Shown piece after piece: positions 4,358 to 46,739 of a DNA stretch of 64,000 bases. The notes below the pieces were generated by a model. It was not told the origin of the DNA. It saw only the letters and a program-made list of their open reading frames with translations, and did no database searches. The DNA lies in the NCBI GenBank assembly GCA_028697725.1, contig JAQVEG010000001.1, positions 167,516 through 231,515 on the forward strand. Direction: 5' to 3'. Source of the DNA: Anaerostipes sp. (GTDB taxonomy: Bacteria; Bacillota; Clostridia; Lachnospirales; Lachnospiraceae). Each line of letters starts with the position of its first letter. Positions within the stretch are counted from its first letter, which is position 1. Position numbers and translations under genes: made by a program.

Positions 4358-4429
4358 GGCCCCATGGTCAAGCGGTTAAGACGCGACCCTCTCAAGGTCG
4401 AATCACGAGTTCAATTCTCGTTGGGGTCA
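4358..4429 (+). tRNA. tRNA-Glu (anticodon CTC)
   Basis: Acceptor stem GGCCCCA/TGGGGTC, D-loop TGGTCAAGCGGTTAAGAC, anticodon arm CGACC-CTCTCAA-GGTCG, T-arm ACGAG-TTCAATT-CTCGT; CCA not encoded. Confidence 0.95.
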
Positions 4430-4531: not shown

Positions 4532-5722
4532 CTAAAGTGCTGTTTCATCTGAAAAAATGATATCTGCAAAGTCTGATATTGTCTTTTTCTCTTCCGAACC
4601 TCGAATATGAGCATAGTTGTGTAGGAATGTTTTTACGTCATTTCCCATGATGCTGGAAATGATTTTATCTTGTACACCACGAGAGTAGTTGTTTGTTCCA
4701 AATGTATGTCTGCAATTGTATAAAGGGATTTGAGGTATTCTATCTTTTGGCTTAACTGATTGGCTGTATCTTTCAATCGTTCTACGAAACATCTTTGAAT
4801 AATGGTTAGGGGTTACTGCACCTCCTTCTTCTGTAACAAAAAGAGTATCGGTTGTAAAAAAATCAGGGTATTGAAGCTGTATTTTCTTTTTCCATGTAAG
4901 CGAAGATTTAATTAAGTCGTATAGTGCATCAGGCAGGTAGATAGATCTATGTGACGCTGGTGTTTTTAAGTCAGTAAAATTACCTTGTTTGTCAATTCCT
5001 CTATTAAGCTCTAGTGTATGCAGTTCTTTGTTCAAATCTGTTTCAGCCAGTCCGCATGTTTCTCCTGGTCTTGTCCCCACTAATAAAGAAGTTGCAAACA
5101 TTGCATAATAATGTGATTCTTTTACGATGGGAGAGTTTAAAAAGGCTTGGATTTGCTCGTTAGTCCATGTTATTTTCTTCTTGTATGGCACGTGATTGCG
5201 TTTTATTCCAAGCATGGGGTTCTTGTTAGGCTCAATTACTTTAAGTTCATCTGACGCAAAATTAAAGATGTCACAGAGGATATTAATCATTTTGTTAATG
5301 GTCTCTGGGGAATATGGCTTTCCGTTTTTATTTGTTGTTTCCTGCATTAAGGTTTTAAATTTCAAAATATGAGAGGATTCTATTTTTCTAATGCCAACAT
5401 TCTCAAATACTTCTTTTATGTATCTGTTATAGTAATACTCGTATGTTACTAGGGTGCTGTTTCGATAAAATCCTTTTGAATAAGCGAGCCACTGGTCAGC
5501 AACTTCTCCAAAAAGCATTCCACGTTCTTTTGCGATTTTCTCTTTTTCTTTTCCATTTTTTAATTCCTCCATGATTTCAATTTCATCCTTGGATGCATTT
5601 ATGCGTTTTTCTTGTAATGGTCCAACGATACGTTTTTTTGTTCTGCCATCATAGACAGAAGCGTAGTACCTAGTAGTAATGCTGCCATCTTTTTTTCTGT
5701 AACTTTTCTTTTGTACACTCAT
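4532..5722 (-). CDS. Tyrosine recombinase / phage integrase
   Basis: N-terminal arm-binding-like region, SAM-like middle, catalytic GTRPGETCGL, KT..S.R.I, YNCRHTF, IMGN, YAH. Confidence 0.93.
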   Translation of the reverse strand: MSVQKKSYRKKDGSITTRYYASVYDGRTKKRIVGPLQEKRINASKDEIEIMEELKNGKEKEKIAKERGMLFGEVADQWLAYSKGFYRNSTLVTYEYYYNRYIKEVFENVGIRKIESSHILKFKTLMQETTNKNGKPYSPETINKMINILCDIFNFASDELKVIEPNKNPMLGIKRNHVPYKKKITWTNEQIQAFLNSPIVKESHYYAMFATSLLVGTRPGETCGLAETDLNKELHTLELNRGIDKQGNFTDLKTPASHRSIYLPDALYDLIKSSLTWKKKIQLQYPDFFTTDTLFVTEEGGAVTPNHYSKMFRRTIERYSQSVKPKDRIPQIPLYNCRHTFGTNNYSRGVQDKIISSIMGNDVKTFLHNYAHIRGSEEKKTISDFADIIFSDETAL

Positions 5723-5853
5723 AGAACATCATCCTTTCTAAAGAAGGGTATAAAAAATACACCCTACAATTATTGTTGGATGTATGATATAATTCTAATT
5801 GTTCAGAAGAGAATTATATTAACATCCGTGTTAATAGGTTTCTTTTGCGAAAG

Positions 5854-5881
5854 CAGTCACTTTGCCGAGTGGCTGTTTTTT
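5854..5881 (+). repeat. Cassette repeat copy A (hairpin part only)
   Basis: CAGTCAC-TTTGCCGA-GTGGCTG-TTTTTT; same hairpin as copies B-D. Confidence 0.8.
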
Positions 5882-5901
5882 AAATAGATTAAGTAAAAAA
5901 G

Positions 5902-5934
5902 TTGCATTTTTTTTTACTTAATGTATAATATAAT
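5902..5934 (+). promoter_or_regulatory. Sigma-A-type promoter facing the 3' end of the DUF3644 gene
   Basis: TTGCAT-16 bp-TATAAT, with a second overlapping TATAAT at 5929; no ORF follows on this strand. Confidence 0.65.
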
Positions 5935-5936
5935 TA

Positions 5937-6030
5937 TCAAAGATAACTTGTGAAGGAATAACACTGGGTCCCAGAATGGGGTAAGTACATTATGTACTGA
6001 GCATTCCTATGTGCCTGGGGTTATCTTTTT
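5937..6030 (+). ncRNA. Candidate structured small RNA (possible pseudoknot)
   Basis: Own promoter; closing stem AAAGATAAC/GTTATCTTT plus T-run; inner AGGAAT/ATTCCT stem; AGTACA-TTA-TGTACT hairpin; CCCAG can pair with CTGGG outside the inner stem. Confidence 0.6.
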
Positions 6031-6994
6031 ATTTGCTTCGTTTTAAACTCTCGACAAATTTGTCTGGAGTTTTTTCGATTTCTGATACAATAAATTCAAT
6101 AAATTGTTGTGAATATGTATATTGTTGCTGATTACCAATAATATGTTGATATGCATATTTGGGGTCGTTTTTTATATCGTAGAAATCAATAATAAGGTTT
6201 AATACATAACTATTAAAACCAGAGGAATATCCCAGCTTTATATGCTTTCTTTTTAATCTTTCTTGAATCGCAGTGACAACACTACTATGCGAATATTTAT
6301 GAGTATCTGATGGGTCTTTTACTTCTTTTAGAGTGGTAACCTTTGTATCTGAATCCTTAGAAATACACACTGCAAAATCAGCCTTGTCTCTCTTTTTTGT
6401 TATATATAGATTTTGTCTTATGTTAATTGCAAATTTATCAGAACGTATTTCATCACTTAAAACATCTATTTCATTAGATTGCTTAATGAACTTTTCGGCA
6501 ATTTCAGGACTGTATTTTAATTTGATTTCCTCGTTTGAGAGAGGTTCATATCTCGCTGATATTGTTAGAAAATTTTGTGCAATATATTTAGTAATATCTC
6601 TATTGTGAAATCTTTGAATTTCATTTACAAAGTTAAGAACGCAAGCTTGAAAAAGCGGCGCGTATTTCACCTCATAATCTTCAGTTATATAATGAGTACT
6701 AATATTTCTTAATTCTAATATTTTTTCAAGATTTAATCTGATCCTTGTGTTTTTATCAGAATATATTTTTTTGATTGAGTTTTCTACGCTTAAGGTCCTG
6801 TCAGGTTTATCAGAATAGTAGATGCTTTTTCCACGATTTATAAGCTCGGCTTTTAGCATGAGTTCCCAAGCGTTTACTATAAAGAAAGAAAATCCTTCAA
6901 TTCTGTATTTAATTGTAGGTTTATTGTATATCTCTAATCCTAAAATAAAAGCCTCTATACTTTTGTCAACTAATCTTTCCTTGATATTTTCCAA
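6029..6994 (-). CDS. DUF3644-like protein, predicted HEPN-superfamily RNase
   Basis: Likely TTG start at 6994 after an AAGGCGGG RBS. N-terminus (KSIEAFILGLEIYNKP..YR.EGFSFFIVNAWELMLKA) is typical of DUF3644; RNISTH = RxxxxH motif at 6709-6692. Confidence 0.75.
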   Translation of the reverse strand: MENIKERLVDKSIEAFILGLEIYNKPTIKYRIEGFSFFIVNAWELMLKAELINRGKSIYYSDKPDRTLSVENSIKKIYSDKNTRIRLNLEKILELRNISTHYITEDYEVKYAPLFQACVLNFVNEIQRFHNRDITKYIAQNFLTISARYEPLSNEEIKLKYSPEIAEKFIKQSNEIDVLSDEIRSDKFAINIRQNLYITKKRDKADFAVCISKDSDTKVTTLKEVKDPSDTHKYSHSSVVTAIQERLKRKHIKLGYSSGFNSYVLNLIIDFYDIKNDPKYAYQHIIGNQQQYTYSQQFIEFIVSEIEKTPDKFVESLKRSK

Positions 6995-7111
6995 GTTTAT
7001 CCCGCCTTTCTTTATGTTTAGTATTAATTTCTTCTTAAGTAAAAAATACAATATTCTATTAATGTAACTATATGCGGTAGTAGTAGTAGGGGTGTGAATC
7101 TAATTTTTCCT

Positions 7112-7175
7112 AAAAAAATACTCGCCATGTTACGCATATTACCCGAAAATAACAGAGGCTTGGCGAGTTCCGTTA
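7112..7175 (-). ncRNA. Candidate leader or antitoxin RNA resembling the abiF RNA motif
   Basis: Minus-strand promoter TTGATA-17-TATCCT (7209-7181); 8-bp stem ACTCGCCA/TGGCGAGT enclosing GCCTCT...ATGCGT; T7 tract follows. Confidence 0.5.
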
Positions 7176-7222
7176 CATATAGGATATGATATGCATTTTA
7201 AAATATCAAGATATTTTTGGTA

Positions 7223-8059
7223 TTATAGCTTTATAAGTGCATCGATTAATTCTTTTTCTAAATTCTTTTGTTGTGTTGCAGTTAATTGAGAAGAAGTTCT
7301 TACTATGATAGTTCCTATAACTTTATGCGAACCAGGATTCATCATACCGGTTGAATCAAAAGCAGCAAGGTACTTATTTCTGGTGTCTGCATTCTCTTTT
7401 GTTTTGTAGACTTCTATACAGCCACCGCCATCAGTTCCATTGCCTATAGAATCTTTCCCAGAAAGAAAAGAATGATCAACCTTAGGACTTGAAAAATAAA
7501 TTGCTGCAGTATAACCTCCAGTTTTGTTTAAACTACCATTTGGGTCATTTTTTTCTGTTACCGCTTTAACGTTATTAATGGATTTTATCTTTTTAAGTGA
7601 TGCTAAAACAAACTTTTGTGATGGATTAGTTACTTGCTCCAATTGCTGTATACTTTTGTCTAATTCCGTTGTGCTTTTTTGCAATTCAGATATCTGTTTA
7701 GAATAATCCACACCTTTTTCTAGAATTAAAGTTTCTTTTTTTACAACACTAATTTTTTTGGGGGCATCTGGTACATTGCGTCTAACTTTTTTTGCATTTT
7801 TAATTGAATCCTTTGCATTAGTTATTGTCGATTTTTCGAGTGGCTCTTTCTTTGAATTGATGAGTTTTTGTGCTTTGTTTATGTATCCGTTTAGCTCAAC
7901 ATTTTTTTTGTCAATTTTTTCAGATGCAGCGTTGTATTTGCTAACGGCAATATCATATGGTCTTTTATATGTAAAATACCATACTCCAACAGCTATAATC
8001 AAAACAACAGCAATTCCGATAATAGTAAAGTTTTTCTTTGATGTTCCAGTAGTTTTCAT
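7223..8059 (-). CDS. Membrane-anchored extracellular phage cargo protein (coiled coil plus conserved C-terminal domain)
   Basis: N-terminal TM helix (IIGIAVVLIIAVGVWYF), Lys-rich helical stalk, DPNGSLNK.GGY...GGGCIEVY domain; GGGAGG RBS. Confidence 0.7.
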   Translation of the reverse strand: MKTTGTSKKNFTIIGIAVVLIIAVGVWYFTYKRPYDIAVSKYNAASEKIDKKNVELNGYINKAQKLINSKKEPLEKSTITNAKDSIKNAKKVRRNVPDAPKKISVVKKETLILEKGVDYSKQISELQKSTTELDKSIQQLEQVTNPSQKFVLASLKKIKSINNVKAVTEKNDPNGSLNKTGGYTAAIYFSSPKVDHSFLSGKDSIGNGTDGGGCIEVYKTKENADTRNKYLAAFDSTGMMNPGSHKVIGTIIVRTSSQLTATQQKNLEKELIDALIKL

Positions 8060-8876: not shown

Positions 8877-9155
8877 TTAGCAAAAAAATTTATTTCATTA
8901 AAGTAAGTCAACCATTTATCTACAACTTCGTTGTTTCGTGCTTCAATAATTCTCATAATGTTTCGAAGTGTTTTTACTTGGAATCTTCGAGTTATTATTG
9001 CAGAGTAAACACTTCCCAGCTTTTGTTATCCAAATTTTCGTAGCATTAGAGGTTGGTTTTCCTTTTGCGACATATACGTGAATTGGTTCAAGAGGATCAT
9101 TTTTATTTGACCAAAAATAAATCCAGTAAGAACCAATTTTAAAAATTTGAGGCAT
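8877..9155 (-). pseudogene. DUF4160-like (HicA/DhiT-related) gene with a frameshift
   Basis: MPQIFKIGSYWIYFWSN..DPLEPIHVYV. After IPSK the frame gives NTSKHYENY*; removing one A of the A5 run (8971-8975) restores TLRNIMRIIEARNNEVVDKWLTYFNEINFF. Confidence 0.65.
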
Positions 9156-9411
9156 TTTCAAAACCCACTTCTTTTGAAAATTCAATTATCAGATGTGCAG
9201 TACTCTCCAATATCTCTTTGAATTTCTCAATTTCAGCATTCGAATATCCATAGACGTTTTCCCATGTGTAATCTGGAAGATAACAGGACGCGTGGTGAAA
9301 TCCGTCTTTTTCATTAGGTGTTTCAATATATACTTTTACTTTATTATCTGGTAGCATTTCAGAATGTGTAATTTCTGTCTCATCCGTAAGTGTCATGAAT
9401 GGATACATCAT
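9139..9411 (-). CDS. Small acidic hypothetical protein overlapping the DUF4160 gene (putative partner or antitoxin)
   Basis: ATG at 9411 after an AAGGAGGG RBS; 90 aa; its 3' end overlaps the DUF4160 start. Confidence 0.7.
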   Translation of the reverse strand: MMYPFMTLTDETEITHSEMLPDNKVKVYIETPNEKDGFHHASCYLPDYTWENVYGYSNAEIEKFKEILESTAHLIIEFSKEVGFENASNF

Positions 9412-9473
9412 AATTAGTCCCTCCTTTATATAAATACAATATTTTATAGTTCTATTATAACCAAAATTCAAAA

Positions 9474-41051: not shown

Positions 41052-41102
41052 AAGTTGATTTCAAATAAGCAAACAAGTATAATGATAAACGGTAATTATT
41101 AA

Positions 41103-41186
41103 AAAGGGGAGTCCACCAAGTGGGCTGAGAGTAAGCGAGAAGCTTTGACCCGAAACCTGAATTGGATCATGCCAACGTAGGGATAT
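41103..41186 (+). ncRNA. TPP riboswitch (upstream of thiD-cytX)
   Basis: GGGGAG...GCTGAGAG...GACCCG-AACCTGA-TTGGATCATGCCAACGTAGGGA; terminator at about 41200-41237. Confidence 0.92.
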
Positions 41187-41311
41187 ATACGAAGTGTAAG
41201 CTGCGCAGATATCTTTACGATGTCTGCACTTTTTTTAAGTGTCAATTCAGGCAGCGGTTTTTGGGGGCACCACCTAAATCGCTTAACAAAATAGTGCAGG
41301 AGGATTTTATA

Positions 41312-46347: not shown

Positions 46348-46460
46348 TCCTACCTCATTTCGTGCAGTTTCATCGTTATCCCTTAGAACAAAGTATAACA
46401 TAATTTTATAAGGTGTTGTCAAAAAACACTCTATATGTTAAAATAATTTTCGTAAAAGAA

Positions 46461-46543
46461 ACTGGGGAGCTTGGAAAACCGGCTGAGAGGAAGTTTAAAC
46501 TTCGACCCTTATACCTGATGCGGATAATGCCGACGTAGGAAGA
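46461..46543 (+). ncRNA. TPP riboswitch (upstream of thiSFGH)
   Basis: CTGGGGAG...GCTGAGAGG...GACCCTT-ACCTGATGCGGATAATGCCGACGTAGGAAG; terminator at about 46570-46607. Confidence 0.92.
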
Positions 46544-46739
46544 ATTCTAGAAAGTTTATAGAATATTTCAAAAGAAGCATTTTCAAAAGAGAATGTTTCT
46601 TTTTTTAGGAATTCTTTGAAATAACATCAGGAGCAATTACATAAAGTAGAAGTTGAGAGTGCATGAAAGCAGCATGAAGGGGGACACCACCACGGGTGTC
46701 ACTTTTCTTGTTGCTTTTTTTTTGAAAAGAGGTGAAATT

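What the first reader, a model, noticed from the sequence alone, without database searches (positions are those of the whole stretch)
5889..6030. Promoter-driven, probably pseudoknotted ~95-nt RNA converging on the HEPN gene's stop codon
Seen: TTGCAT-16-TATAAT; closing stem AAAGATAAC(5939-47)/GTTATCTTT(6020-28); inner stem AGGAAT(5954-59)/ATTCCT(6003-08); hairpin AGTACA-TTA-TGTACT; CCCAG(5970-74) can pair with CTGGG(6015-19) across the inner stem, forming a pseudoknot. It is GC-richer than its surroundings and non-coding. Known type III antitoxins (ToxI, CptI, TenpI) are pseudoknotted RNAs that bind an RNase toxin; here the neighbour is a HEPN protein and the RNA is single-copy and convergent. 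The promoter sits in an inverted repeat TTAAGTAAAAAA-N9-TTTTTTACTTAA, and the same 12-mer recurs at 7035-7046 upstream of the HEPN gene, a possible shared operator (low complexity, weak evidence).
Basis: partly seen in the sequence, partly recalled or inferred. Interest (0 to 1): 0.75.

Follow-up and report, generated by a model that had tools for sequence, protein, structure and literature searches.

The report
Conserved small RNA partnering HEPN gene
Next to a predicted RNA-cutting defence gene lies a real, very conserved, structured small-RNA gene listed in no RNA database; it accompanies every close relative of that gene in many bacterial phyla and is probably its off-switch.

Summary
Window 5939-6035 (+) is a real ~92-nt structured RNA gene with its own sigma-70 promoter and a closing helix followed by a U-tail. 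It runs against, and overlaps the stop codon of, a DUF3644-HEPN/EC042_2821 gene (PADLOC candidate defence PDC-S19).

- **Databases:** it matches no Rfam 15 family, and no paper in the searchable library prints its core.
- **Spread:** it recurs at 53-103 bits in more than 110 species of Bacillota, Actinomycetota, Bacteroidota, Spirochaetota, Pseudomonadota and Saccharibacteria, and in Streptococcus satellites and Staphylococcus and Listeria phages.
- **Structure:** 14 base pairs show compensatory changes, and 96-97% of pair cells are canonical.
- **Strand:** G-U pairs place the RNA on the strand opposite the gene.
- **Linkage:** starting from the protein, 77 of 77 loci with room carry the RNA at the gene's 3' end. 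Other PDC-S19 subfamilies and E. coli lack it.

The fold is P1, internal loop, P2, then a three-way junction with P3 and a variable P4.

The most likely role is an antitoxin-like regulator of the HEPN RNase. About 30% of RNA copies are orphans, and some of these are under purifying selection, so an exclusive antitoxin role is unproven.

The parts
5884..5926 (.). Inverted repeat (17-nt arms, 9-nt gap) around the -35 box. It is specific to this window and absent from relatives.
5902..5907 (+). -35 box TTGCAT of the RNA promoter
   Evidence: Read. In 137 unique loci a -35 box with at least 4 of 6 matches lies at this place in 70%, against 24% in a control region.
5924..5929 (+). -10 box TATAAT. 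The predicted transcript start is about 5936-5940.
   Evidence: A -10 box with at least 5 of 6 matches is found in 82% of 137 unique loci against 23% in the control, and 120 of 137 start 35-42 nt before the core.
5939..6035 (+). The small-RNA gene: P1, internal loop, P2, a three-way junction with P3 and P4, and a U-tail.
   Evidence: Covariance model R1 scores 102.4 bits here. Covariation. Strand.
5939..5949 (+). P1 5' strand. It pairs with 6018-6028.
   Evidence: Six of its pairs show changes on both sides, for example A-U, C-G, U-A and U-G at one pair.
5950..5961 (+). Conserved 5' side of the internal loop (GUGAAGGAAUAA). G5955 and G5956 can pair with C6015 and C6014; all four are invariant.
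5962..5968 (+). P2 5' strand (CAC-U-GGG). It pairs with 6006-6013.
   Evidence: Four pairs have changes on both sides. GUG/CAC replaces GGG/CCU in the Javan296 lineage.
5970..5981 (+). P3 hairpin, CCC-AGAAUG-GGG.
   Evidence: The pair at columns 35-49 is U-A in 59, C-G in 36 and U-G in 4 sequences. Loops seen: GAAU, AAAG, GAAAA.
5984..5998 (+). P4, a hairpin of variable length and sequence (AGUACA-UUA-UGUACU).
   Evidence: Other loci have different stems, some with UUCG or GAAA loops.
5999..6005 (+). Conserved junction strand GAGCAUU between P4 and P2.
6006..6013 (+). P2 3' strand (CCUAUGUG).
6014..6028 (+). CCUG, the 3' side of the internal loop, followed by the P1 3' strand.
6026..6035 (+). 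U-rich tail after P1, the likely 3' end of the RNA. It overlaps the stop codon of the HEPN gene (6029-6031).
   Evidence: The 12 nt after P1 hold 7.8 T on average in 137 loci. Stop-codon overlap.
6029..6994 (-). DUF3644 (HEPN, RNISTH motif) plus EC042_2821 C-terminal domain gene, 321 aa. It belongs to the PADLOC PDC-S19 subgroup PDLC04952. The likely start is TTG at 6994, not 7051.
6045..6077 (+). Second hairpin plus U-tract on the RNA strand, inside the last codons of the gene. It may be a back-up terminator for read-through of the RNA.
   Evidence: I2. A similar element occurs in 38 of 96 unique loci.
7035..7046 (+). Second direct copy of TTAAGTAAAAAA, 40 nt before the gene's start codon. 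Together with 5889-5900 it brackets the RNA-gene cassette.

Best explanation
Window 5939-6035 (+) encodes an uncatalogued, independently transcribed, structured small RNA of about 92 nt. It is the fixed genetic partner of one clade of DUF3644-HEPN/EC042_2821 proteins, the PADLOC PDC-S19 subgroups PDLC04952 and PDLC04949.

**Shown**
- It has its own promoter, and P1 plus a U-tail close it.
- The fold is conserved, with compensatory changes.
- The RNA lies on the strand opposite the gene.
- Its 3' end overlaps or abuts the gene's stop codon.
- It co-occurs with every intact gene of the clade that was examined.

**Inferred**
- The RNA keeps the HEPN ribonuclease harmless in uninfected cells, like an antitoxin.
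- It does so mainly by binding the protein through its invariant loop and junction nucleotides, as type III and AbiF-type RNA antitoxins do.
- The unavoidable antisense overlap with the 3' end of the mRNA may add to this, as in type I systems.
- When transcription of the cassette stops or the RNA is destroyed, for example on phage infection or plasmid entry, the RNase would be freed.

The cassette usually sits as cargo next to the integrase of prophages, satellites and islands, or in restriction-modification loci.

My odds: about 0.95 that this is a real RNA gene coupled to the HEPN gene, and about 0.55 that it acts as a negative regulator or antitoxin of the protein.
For: **The RNA is the most conserved stretch of the locus.** blastn hits to phages and satellites cover only the RNA, at 77-89% identity. 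The proteins are 31-71% identical.

**It is widespread.** About 114 are full-length model hits of 53-103 bits from at least six phyla.

**The structure is supported.**
- 96-97% of pair cells are canonical, against 86-89% in shuffles and 36-64% in slid controls.
- 14 pairs have changes on both sides, and 0 of 500 shuffles reach the observed score.
- P4 varies in length and sequence, with stable tetraloops in some loci.

**Strand.** 97.2% of pairs are canonical on this strand and 81.7% on the other. 17% are G-U.

**Promoter.** A -10 box with at least 5 of 6 matches is present in 82% of loci against 23% in the control, at a fixed distance. A T-rich tail follows P1.

**Linkage to the gene.**
- Starting from the protein, 77 of 77 loci with room carry the RNA, convergent at the gene's end.
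- In 401 genomes of the phylum, all 3 genes of this clade have it.
- Wherever a DUF3644 frame lies near the RNA, it is on the opposite strand, with its stop codon within 10 nt beyond, or inside, the P1 3' strand in 96% of 96 loci.

**Asymmetric decay, as in toxin-antitoxin pairs.** There are 14 broken genes and 30 lost genes beside an intact RNA, but no intact gene without the RNA.

**The protein looks like an active RNase.**
- The HEPN R-N-x-S-T-H motif is conserved; R and H are invariant in 33 sequences.
- The C-terminal 'REase-like' domain has no invariant acidic residue, so it may bind rather than cut.

**A tested precedent exists.** The AbiF HEPN toxin is neutralised by the structured RNA RCd22 (PMC12373285).
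Against:
- No binding or toxicity data exist for this family.
- 30 of 101 species-level RNA loci with room have no DUF3644 gene, and 29 of those 30 genomes have none anywhere.
- In five orthologous loci the orphan RNA stays 87-96% identical, while the neighbouring hsdM DNA is 77-88% identical and the spacer 15-66%. The RNA is therefore selected without the protein, which a pure antitoxin role does not predict.
- Orphan copies are no more degenerate than partnered ones, although the pattern scan favours intact cores.
- The RNA core stays invariant across phyla even where the proteins are only 31% identical. This could point to a more universal ligand.
- The asymmetry of decay is partly expected because the gene is a ten-fold larger mutational target.
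- Related DUF3644 proteins (HEC-08, Ishtar) are reported as single-gene defences, and no RNA partner is mentioned in the passages searched.
Confidence: 0.55

Rival explanations
1. The RNA acts purely as a cis-antisense or termination element, as in type I systems. It works only through its convergent, overlapping transcription: it forms a duplex with the 3' end of the HEPN mRNA (RNase III cleavage or stabilisation), causes transcriptional interference, or serves as a bidirectional terminator or insulator for whichever gene converges on it. It does not bind the protein.
For: - The stop codon lies inside, or within 10 nt beyond, the P1 3' strand in 96% of 96 loci, so the two transcripts must overlap.
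- A U-tail follows P1.
- 38 of 96 loci have a second hairpin plus U-tract a little further into the gene.
- Orphan copies abut the 3' ends of other genes (hsdM, hsdR, NYN, PGA_cap, Abi_2) with gaps of 0-180 nt.
Against: - An antisense RNA is complementary to its target whatever its sequence. This model therefore does not explain the invariant unpaired nucleotides across phyla, or the compensatory maintenance of four helices.
- Most of the RNA lies outside the coding region.
- The strand opposite P1 has no clear U-tract, so P1 is a poor bidirectional terminator.
Confidence: 0.15
2. The RNA is a positive cofactor or sensor. It forms a ribonucleoprotein with the HEPN protein and is needed for its activity or its triggering, for example as an aptamer for a small molecule or a phage product. 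It is not an inhibitor.
For: - The conservation pattern resembles that of riboswitch aptamers and RNP scaffolds: an invariant internal loop and three-way junction, and variable peripheral P4.
- The core is more conserved than the protein.
- Co-occurrence is strict.
Against: - Decay is one-sided: the gene is lost or broken 44 times beside an intact RNA, and the RNA is never lost beside an intact gene. That fits an inhibitor better than a cofactor.
- Orphan RNAs persist in genomes that have no DUF3644.
- No known riboswitch matches.
Confidence: 0.15
3. The RNA is an autonomous element whose main function does not involve DUF3644. Examples would be a decoy carried by mobile elements against a host factor or a defence system, or a regulator shared by several defence cassettes. 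The HEPN clade would simply have become fixed next to it.
For: - Five orthologous orphan loci show purifying selection on the RNA without any DUF3644 gene in the genome.
- Staphylococcus phages carry a second copy that converges on a PGA_cap gene.
- Other orphans lie beside Abi_2, NYN, RloB, MmeI and type I R-M genes.
Against: - Such a function alone does not explain why 77 of 77 genes of the clade keep the RNA in exactly the same overlapping arrangement across phyla.
- 14 further RNA loci keep fragments of the HEPN gene, among them L136, where the RNA now faces an Abi_2 gene. This suggests that some RNA-only sites arose by loss of the gene.
Confidence: 0.12
4. It is not an RNA at all but a DNA-level site, such as an attachment, recombination or operator site next to the integrase.
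For: - A tyrosine or serine recombinase gene is the upstream neighbour in 28 of 104 loci.
- Direct repeats bracket the cassette in some loci.
Against: - The G-U asymmetry between strands (97.2% against 81.7% canonical).
- A positioned promoter and a U-tail.
- Compensatory changes in nested helices, and a hairpin of variable length with tetraloops.
- 76 of 104 loci have no recombinase next to the RNA.
Confidence: 0.03

Closest known systems
AbiF (Abi_2 HEPN) with its ncRNA carrying abiF motifs, e.g. RCd22 of a Clostridioides difficile prophage (PMC12373285)
   Same: A prophage-borne HEPN-superfamily toxin or defence protein paired with a structured, non-repetitive small RNA. In that system the RNA was shown to neutralise the protein by direct binding.
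   Different: - The HEPN family differs: DUF3644/EC042_2821 here, Abi_2 there.
- The RNA is unrelated and gives no Rfam hit, including to the abiF motif.
- This RNA is convergent and overlaps the gene's 3' end. As recalled from memory and not checked here, the abiF motif lies upstream of the abiF gene on the same strand.
- Nothing has been tested experimentally for this RNA.
Type III toxin-antitoxin systems (ToxIN, CptIN, TenpIN)
   Same: The proposed logic is the same: a labile structured RNA holds an endoribonuclease inactive, and the pair acts in abortive infection on mobile elements.
   Different: - The antitoxins there are tandem repeats upstream of the toxin in one operon and are processed by a ToxN-fold toxin (established knowledge of these systems).
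- Here the RNA is single-copy, has its own promoter and is convergent. The toxin is HEPN.
- The proposed pseudoknot is not supported.
Type I toxin-antitoxin pairs with convergent 3' overlap (txpA/RatA, bsrG/SR4 of Bacillus subtilis prophage regions)
   Same: A convergent small RNA overlaps the 3' end of the toxin mRNA, and the pair lies in prophage or island regions of Bacillota.
   Different: - Toxins there are small membrane peptides.
- Those antisense RNAs are not conserved in sequence across phyla.
- Here the toxin would be a 321-aa HEPN enzyme, and the RNA has an invariant structured core.
PDC-S19 (PADLOC candidate), which is the EC042_2821 HEPN family of Anantharaman et al. 2013 (PMC3710099). 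Relatives: HEC-08 (bioRxiv 10.1101/2024.01.29.577857) and Ishtar (bioRxiv 10.64898/2026.07.06.735840)
   Same: The protein is a clear member: DUF3644 with an Rx4H motif plus the EC042_2821 C-terminal domain. Like the described members, it sits in defence and restriction-modification contexts.
   Different: - These systems are described as single-gene, and no RNA partner is mentioned in the passages found.
- The RNA accompanies only subgroups PDLC04952 and PDLC04949. It was absent from 7 genes of other subgroups and from complete E. coli genomes.

Membership tests
Type III toxin-antitoxin (ToxIN/CptIN/TenpIN) | The antitoxin is an array of tandem direct repeats upstream of the toxin gene on the same strand. 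| tested here: not met
   There is no tandem array. The RNA is single-copy in the genome. It is convergent with its own promoter.
Type III toxin-antitoxin (ToxIN/CptIN/TenpIN) | The toxin is a ToxN/AbiQ-type endoribonuclease that processes the repeats. | tested here: not met
   The protein is DUF3644 HEPN plus EC042_2821. The fold search gives only weak HEPN matches.
Type III toxin-antitoxin (ToxIN/CptIN/TenpIN) | A pseudoknotted RNA binds and inhibits the toxin protein. | not testable with these tools
   The proposed pseudoknot is not supported by covariation. Binding needs experiments.
AbiF / abiF-motif RNA | An Abi_2 (PF07751) protein with an abiF-motif RNA. | tested here: not met
   Pfam finds DUF3644, not Abi_2. 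The whole Rfam 15 library, which to my recollection holds an abiF motif model, gives no hit up to E = 10.
Type I toxin-antitoxin | An antisense RNA overlaps the toxin mRNA. | tested here: met
   The gene's stop codon lies inside the RNA gene in 68% of 96 loci and no more than 10 nt beyond it in 96%. In the window the stop is at 6029-6031 and the U-tail at 6026-6035.
Type I toxin-antitoxin | The toxin is a small hydrophobic peptide. | tested here: not met
   The protein is a 321-aa soluble HEPN protein.
PDC-S19 / EC042_2821 HEPN family (the protein partner) | A DUF3644 HEPN domain with an Rx4-6H motif. | tested here: met
   PF12358 matches at E = 5e-55. RNISTH is present, and R and H are invariant in 33 sequences.
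PDC-S19 / EC042_2821 HEPN family (the protein partner) | An EC042_2821 C-terminal REase-like domain, and a match to the PADLOC model. | tested here: met
   PF18740 matches at E = 1.5e-32. PDLC04952 matches at E = 8e-146.
Any Rfam 15 family | A score at or above the family's gathering threshold. | tested here: not met
   No hit lies on the RNA at gathering threshold. Up to E = 10, only chance-level matches touch its 5' edge or the opposite strand.

The most novel reading that the evidence does not exclude
The RNA is a portable, ligand- or infection-sensing 'safety catch'. In this reading it is a compact aptamer-like fold whose invariant core recognises something universal, such as a metabolite, a nucleotide signal or a host machine. 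It would gate the HEPN RNase and perhaps other effectors found at its 3' end (PGA_cap, NYN, Abi_2, type I R-M). Orphan copies on phages and mobile elements would act as anti-addiction or anti-defence decoys that disarm PDC-S19 in the cells they enter, as phage-encoded pseudo-ToxI does for ToxIN.
Probability: 0.2. Interest if true: 0.9.

Novelty: new variant of a known kind. Interest (0 to 1): 0.78.

Why it matters
PDC-S19 (DUF3644/EC042_2821) is catalogued as a one-gene candidate defence. For one large, cross-phylum clade the unit is in fact two genes, a protein and a small RNA. Cloning the protein gene alone may therefore fail or mislead, and annotation pipelines miss half of the system.

The RNA is a new, strongly supported structured RNA family. 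It is about 92 nt long, is found in more than 110 species, and is carried by Streptococcus satellites and by Staphylococcus and Listeria phages. It would extend RNA-mediated control of HEPN nucleases, so far known for AbiF and as the proposed origin of Cas13, to a second HEPN lineage. It would also add a new gene arrangement: single-copy, convergent and overlapping.

The conserved orphan copies raise a testable idea, namely that mobile elements carry RNA decoys against such systems.

Tried and rejected
- **Single-sequence folding:** not significant (z = -0.5 on the + strand, -1.45 on the - strand).
- **Rfam:** no family at gathering threshold or up to E = 10, either on the window or on a GC-rich variant.
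counted on 100 sequences and rejected.
- **Shared operator:** the inverted repeat and the 12-mer are absent from close relatives.
- **Flanking direct repeats as cassette scars:** only a weak excess, 15% against 7.5% in the control.
- **A functional element on the gene's strand (3' UTR) or a DNA site:** rejected by the G-U asymmetry and the promoter.
- **A small ORF inside the element:** rejected, because P4 varies in length by steps that are not multiples of three and changes are compensatory.
- **A mimic of a host RNA:** no similar sequence elsewhere in the genome.
- **The 'second ncRNA' upstream of the gene (7040-7225):** no conservation in phages. It looks like the terminator of the upstream gene.
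- **A conserved third gene:** none found. Upstream neighbours are varied: recombinases in 28 of 104, hsdS in 7. Beyond the HEPN gene lie cI-type repressors in 7 of 40, and type I R subunits in some.
- **PDB fold search of the AlphaFold2 model:** no hit at E <= 1e-3.
- **Literature:** no paper links DUF3644 or EC042_2821 to an RNA or prints the core 18-mer.
- **E. coli genomes:** no copy.
Full report
**Context.** The window holds a tRNA gene at 4358-4429 (+), a tyrosine integrase gene at 4532-5722 (-), and a 306-nt gap. Next comes a gene at 6029-7051 (-) whose product has a DUF3644 domain (E = 5e-55) and an EC042_2821 'REase-like' C-terminal domain (E = 1.5e-32). It matches the PADLOC candidate defence PDC-S19, best model PDLC04952, at E = 8e-146. 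This is the EC042_2821 HEPN family of Anantharaman et al. 2013 (PMC3710099). Alignment with relatives puts the real start at the TTG at 6994, giving 321 aa. It also shows the HEPN motif RNISTH, whose R and H are invariant in 33 sequences.

**Check of the observation.**
- TTGCAT (5902-5907), a 16-nt spacer, TATAAT (5924-5929).
- The closing stem 5939-5947 / 6020-6028.
- AGGAAT / ATTCCT, the hairpin at 5984-5998, and CCCAG / CTGGG.
- The inverted repeat around the -35 box.
- A third copy of TTAAGTAAAAAA at 7035-7046.

The element has 41% G+C against 27-29% in its flanks. On its own this is weak. The minimum free energy is ordinary (z = -0.5), and the 12-mer is not significantly enriched. No Rfam 15 family matches.

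**Relatives.**
- blastn against phage records finds only the stretch 5923-6034, at 77-89% identity. Hits come from 28 Streptococcus satellite and phage records, 17 Staphylococcus phage records and a Listeria phage (two records). Staphylococcus and Lactobacillaceae plasmid records also hit.
- In Javan12, StB20-like, B_UFSM4, the Listeria phage and others, the element again converges on a DUF3644/EC042_2821 gene.
- An RNA-first scan with an 18-nt core pattern gave 43 viral contigs.
- A covariance model built from 26 sequences (R1) scores about 114 of those 119 loci at 53-103 bits over its full length. The remaining five loci are chance pattern matches.
- Hosts include Lachnospiraceae and other Clostridia, Streptococcus, Enterococcus, Selenomonas and Megasphaera. 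They also include Collinsella, Olsenella, Adlercreutzia, Eggerthella and Corynebacterium; Bacteroides, Alistipes and Paludibacteraceae; and Treponema, Oxalobacter, a Saccharibacteria MAG and a Myxococcota MAG.
- The genome of the window has one copy. Complete E. coli genomes have none.

**Structure.** RNAalifold and manual reading agree. Window coordinates of the elements:

| Element | Window coordinates | Note |
|---|---|---|
| P1 | 5939-5949 / 6018-6028 | closing helix |
| Internal loop | GUGAAGGAAUAA / CCUG | asymmetric; invariant GG/CC pair 5955-56 / 6014-15 |
| P2 | 5962-5968 / 6006-6013 | CAC-U-GGG with CCUA-U-GUG |
| P3 | 5970-5981 | hairpin CCC-loop-GGG, in the three-way junction |
| P4 | 5984-5998 | variable hairpin, in the three-way junction |
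| Junction strand | 5999-6005 | conserved GAGCAUU |

On 100 distinct sequences aligned to the model:
- 96-97% of pair cells are standard pairs, against 86-89% in shuffles and 36-64% when partners are slid.
- 14 of 24 pairs show changes on both sides.
- None of 500 shuffles reaches the observed score.

P4 changes in length and sequence between lineages and carries UUCG or GAAA loops in some.

Pair 38-104 is unpaired in 73 of 100 sequences, and there are no informative double changes. The competing local hairpin shows U-A in 59 sequences against C-G in 36 at its outer pair.

It also excludes the covarying GGG/CCU part of P2.

**Strand and transcription signals.** G-U pairs make up 17% of cells. 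The same pairs are 97.2% canonical on this strand and 81.7% on the gene's strand. In 137 unique loci:
- A -10 box with at least 5 of 6 matches occurs in 82%, against 23% in a control region.
- A -35 box with at least 4 of 6 matches occurs in 70%, against 24%.
- 120 of the -10 boxes start 35-42 nt before the core, which puts the transcript start at the foot of P1.
- The 12 nt after P1 hold 7.8 T on average.

The element is therefore an independent gene on the strand opposite the HEPN gene. It is not a 3' UTR element and not a DNA site.

**Coupling to the HEPN gene.**
- Wherever a DUF3644 frame lies within 4 kb of the RNA, it is on the opposite strand and ends at the RNA.
- In 96 unique loci the stop codon begins between -40 and +29 nt of the P1 3' end, with a median of -3. 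In 68% it lies inside the RNA gene, and in 96% no more than 10 nt beyond it. The two transcripts must therefore overlap.
- Starting from the protein, the 80 closest viral loci (47-80% identity) gave 77 RNA hits at the gene's end. The three loci without a hit are cut off there.
- In a sample of 401 genomes of the phylum, DUF3644 occurs in 10 and the RNA in 5. The three genes of this clade all have the RNA.
- The seven DUF3644 genes without it belong to other PDC-S19 subgroups (PDLC04953, 04955, 04954, 04950 and 04951). They show no match even with filters off. The RNA-linked clade corresponds to PDLC04952 and PDLC04949.

**Orphans.** Of 113 genuine species-level RNA loci:

| Class | Loci |
|---|---|
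| Full-length gene beside the RNA | 57 |
| Gene cut by the end of the locus | 7 |
| Gene fragments only | 14 |
| No gene, although there is room | 30 |
| No room to tell | 5 |

. Of the 30 genomes whose RNA locus has no gene, 29 have no DUF3644 anywhere.

Orphan RNAs face type I hsdM (five loci), hsdR, an MmeI-type enzyme, Abi_2 (three loci), NYN, RloB, HNH, Bro-N and others. Staphylococcus phages carry a second copy that faces a PGA_cap gene.

The five hsdM loci are orthologous. The RNA is 87-96% identical, with compensatory changes in P4. The hsdM DNA is 77-88% identical, and the spacer 15-66%. The RNA is thus kept by selection without the HEPN gene.

Orphans are no more degenerate than partnered copies (P = 0.65), with the caveat that the pattern scan selects intact cores.

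**Wider context.** The upstream neighbour is a tyrosine or serine recombinase in 28 of 104 loci and hsdS in 7. Beyond the HEPN gene, a cI-type repressor follows in 7 of 40 loci. This is the integrase-proximal cargo slot of prophages and satellites, or a restriction-modification locus.

**The protein.** An AlphaFold2 model has a mean pLDDT of 83.7. It has no PDB neighbour at E <= 1e-3, only weak likeness to HEPN toxins such as HepT/SO_3166. The C-terminal domain has no invariant acidic residue, so a catalytic PD-(D/E)xK site is doubtful and a binding role is possible. This last point is inference.

**Interpretation.**
- Shown: a new structured RNA gene, fixed in a convergent, overlapping arrangement with one clade of HEPN genes.
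- Inferred: it restrains the RNase.
- Evidence favouring an antitoxin-like role: strict presence beside intact genes, one-sided decay (44 loci with the gene lost or broken, none with the RNA lost), invariant unpaired nucleotides suited to protein recognition, and the tested precedent of AbiF/RCd22.
- Evidence against an exclusive role: the selected orphan copies, and a core conserved beyond the level of the protein.
- The obligatory 3' overlap means an antisense contribution cannot be excluded.

**Literature and earlier notes.**
- Searches for DUF3644 and EC042_2821 found only the 2013 census, HEC-08 and Ishtar. The passages found mention no RNA partner.
- No paper prints the core sequence.
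- Earlier notes of this scan from other genomes reached the same reading. I treated them as leads and re-derived each claim here.

Noticed in passing
L093, L095, L111, L124, L131 (RNA next to hsdM): In five orthologous loci the RNA has no HEPN gene in the genome. It stays 87-96% identical, with compensatory P4 changes, while the hsdM DNA is 77-88% identical and the spacer 15-66%. The orphan RNA is under purifying selection.
   Followed up: partly
L010:2416-2511, L059:2499-2594, L044 (Staphylococcus phages StB20-like, S-CoN_Ph18 and relatives): A second copy of the RNA, with its own promoter, converges on a 385-aa PGA_cap (CapA-like) gene 33 nt after the RNA core, that is about 25 nt beyond P1. 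In S-CoN_Ph18 no DUF3644 gene lies within the 2.5 kb fetched on either side.
   Followed up: partly
window 5889-5900 and 7035-7046; also L022, L157, L032, L117, L181, L207: The RNA-plus-gene cassette is bracketed by short direct repeats in some loci: 12 nt here, 24 nt in L022, 16 nt in L157. Repeats of 10 nt or more occur in 15% of loci against 7.5% in mismatched controls. They may be insertion scars.
   Followed up: partly
window 6045-6077 (+): A palindromic hairpin followed by a T-run lies on the RNA's strand, inside the last codons of the HEPN gene (…FVESLK…). A similar terminator-like element occurs in 38 of 96 unique loci. It may stop read-through of the small RNA.
   Followed up: partly
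window 5723-5882 (+): A terminator specific to the + strand (CAGTCACT-TTGCCG-AGTGGCTG followed by six T) closes about 130 nt of unannotated sequence between the integrase start and the RNA promoter. Only sub-threshold Rfam matches lie here (PyrR-like, E = 0.15). It may be a short transcript or leader.
   Followed up: no
It holds a hairpin ACTCGCCA…TGGCGAGT followed by seven T on the - strand, most simply the terminator of the upstream 278-aa gene. The fold z-score is -2.24, and there is no similarity in phage records.
   Followed up: partly
window 6992-7051: The ORF finder starts the HEPN gene at TTG 7051 (340 aa). Alignment with relatives, and a purine-rich stretch (AAAGAAAGGCGGG) ending 6 nt before it, point to the TTG at 6994, giving 321 aa.
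   Followed up: yes
L065, L083, L136: In three loci the RNA faces an Abi_2 (AbiD/F-type HEPN) gene 109-177 nt away. L136 keeps a C-terminal DUF3644 remnant in between, which suggests one HEPN gene was swapped for another at the same slot.
   Followed up: partly
window 4358-4429, 41095-41200, 46453-46558: A tRNA gene lies directly beside the integrase, so the island is probably inserted at a tRNA. Two TPP riboswitches lie elsewhere in the window.
   Followed up: no
window 8943-9471 (-): A DUF4160 gene (80 aa) overlaps a 110-aa gene of unknown family. It may be a small two-gene module in the same island.
   Followed up: no
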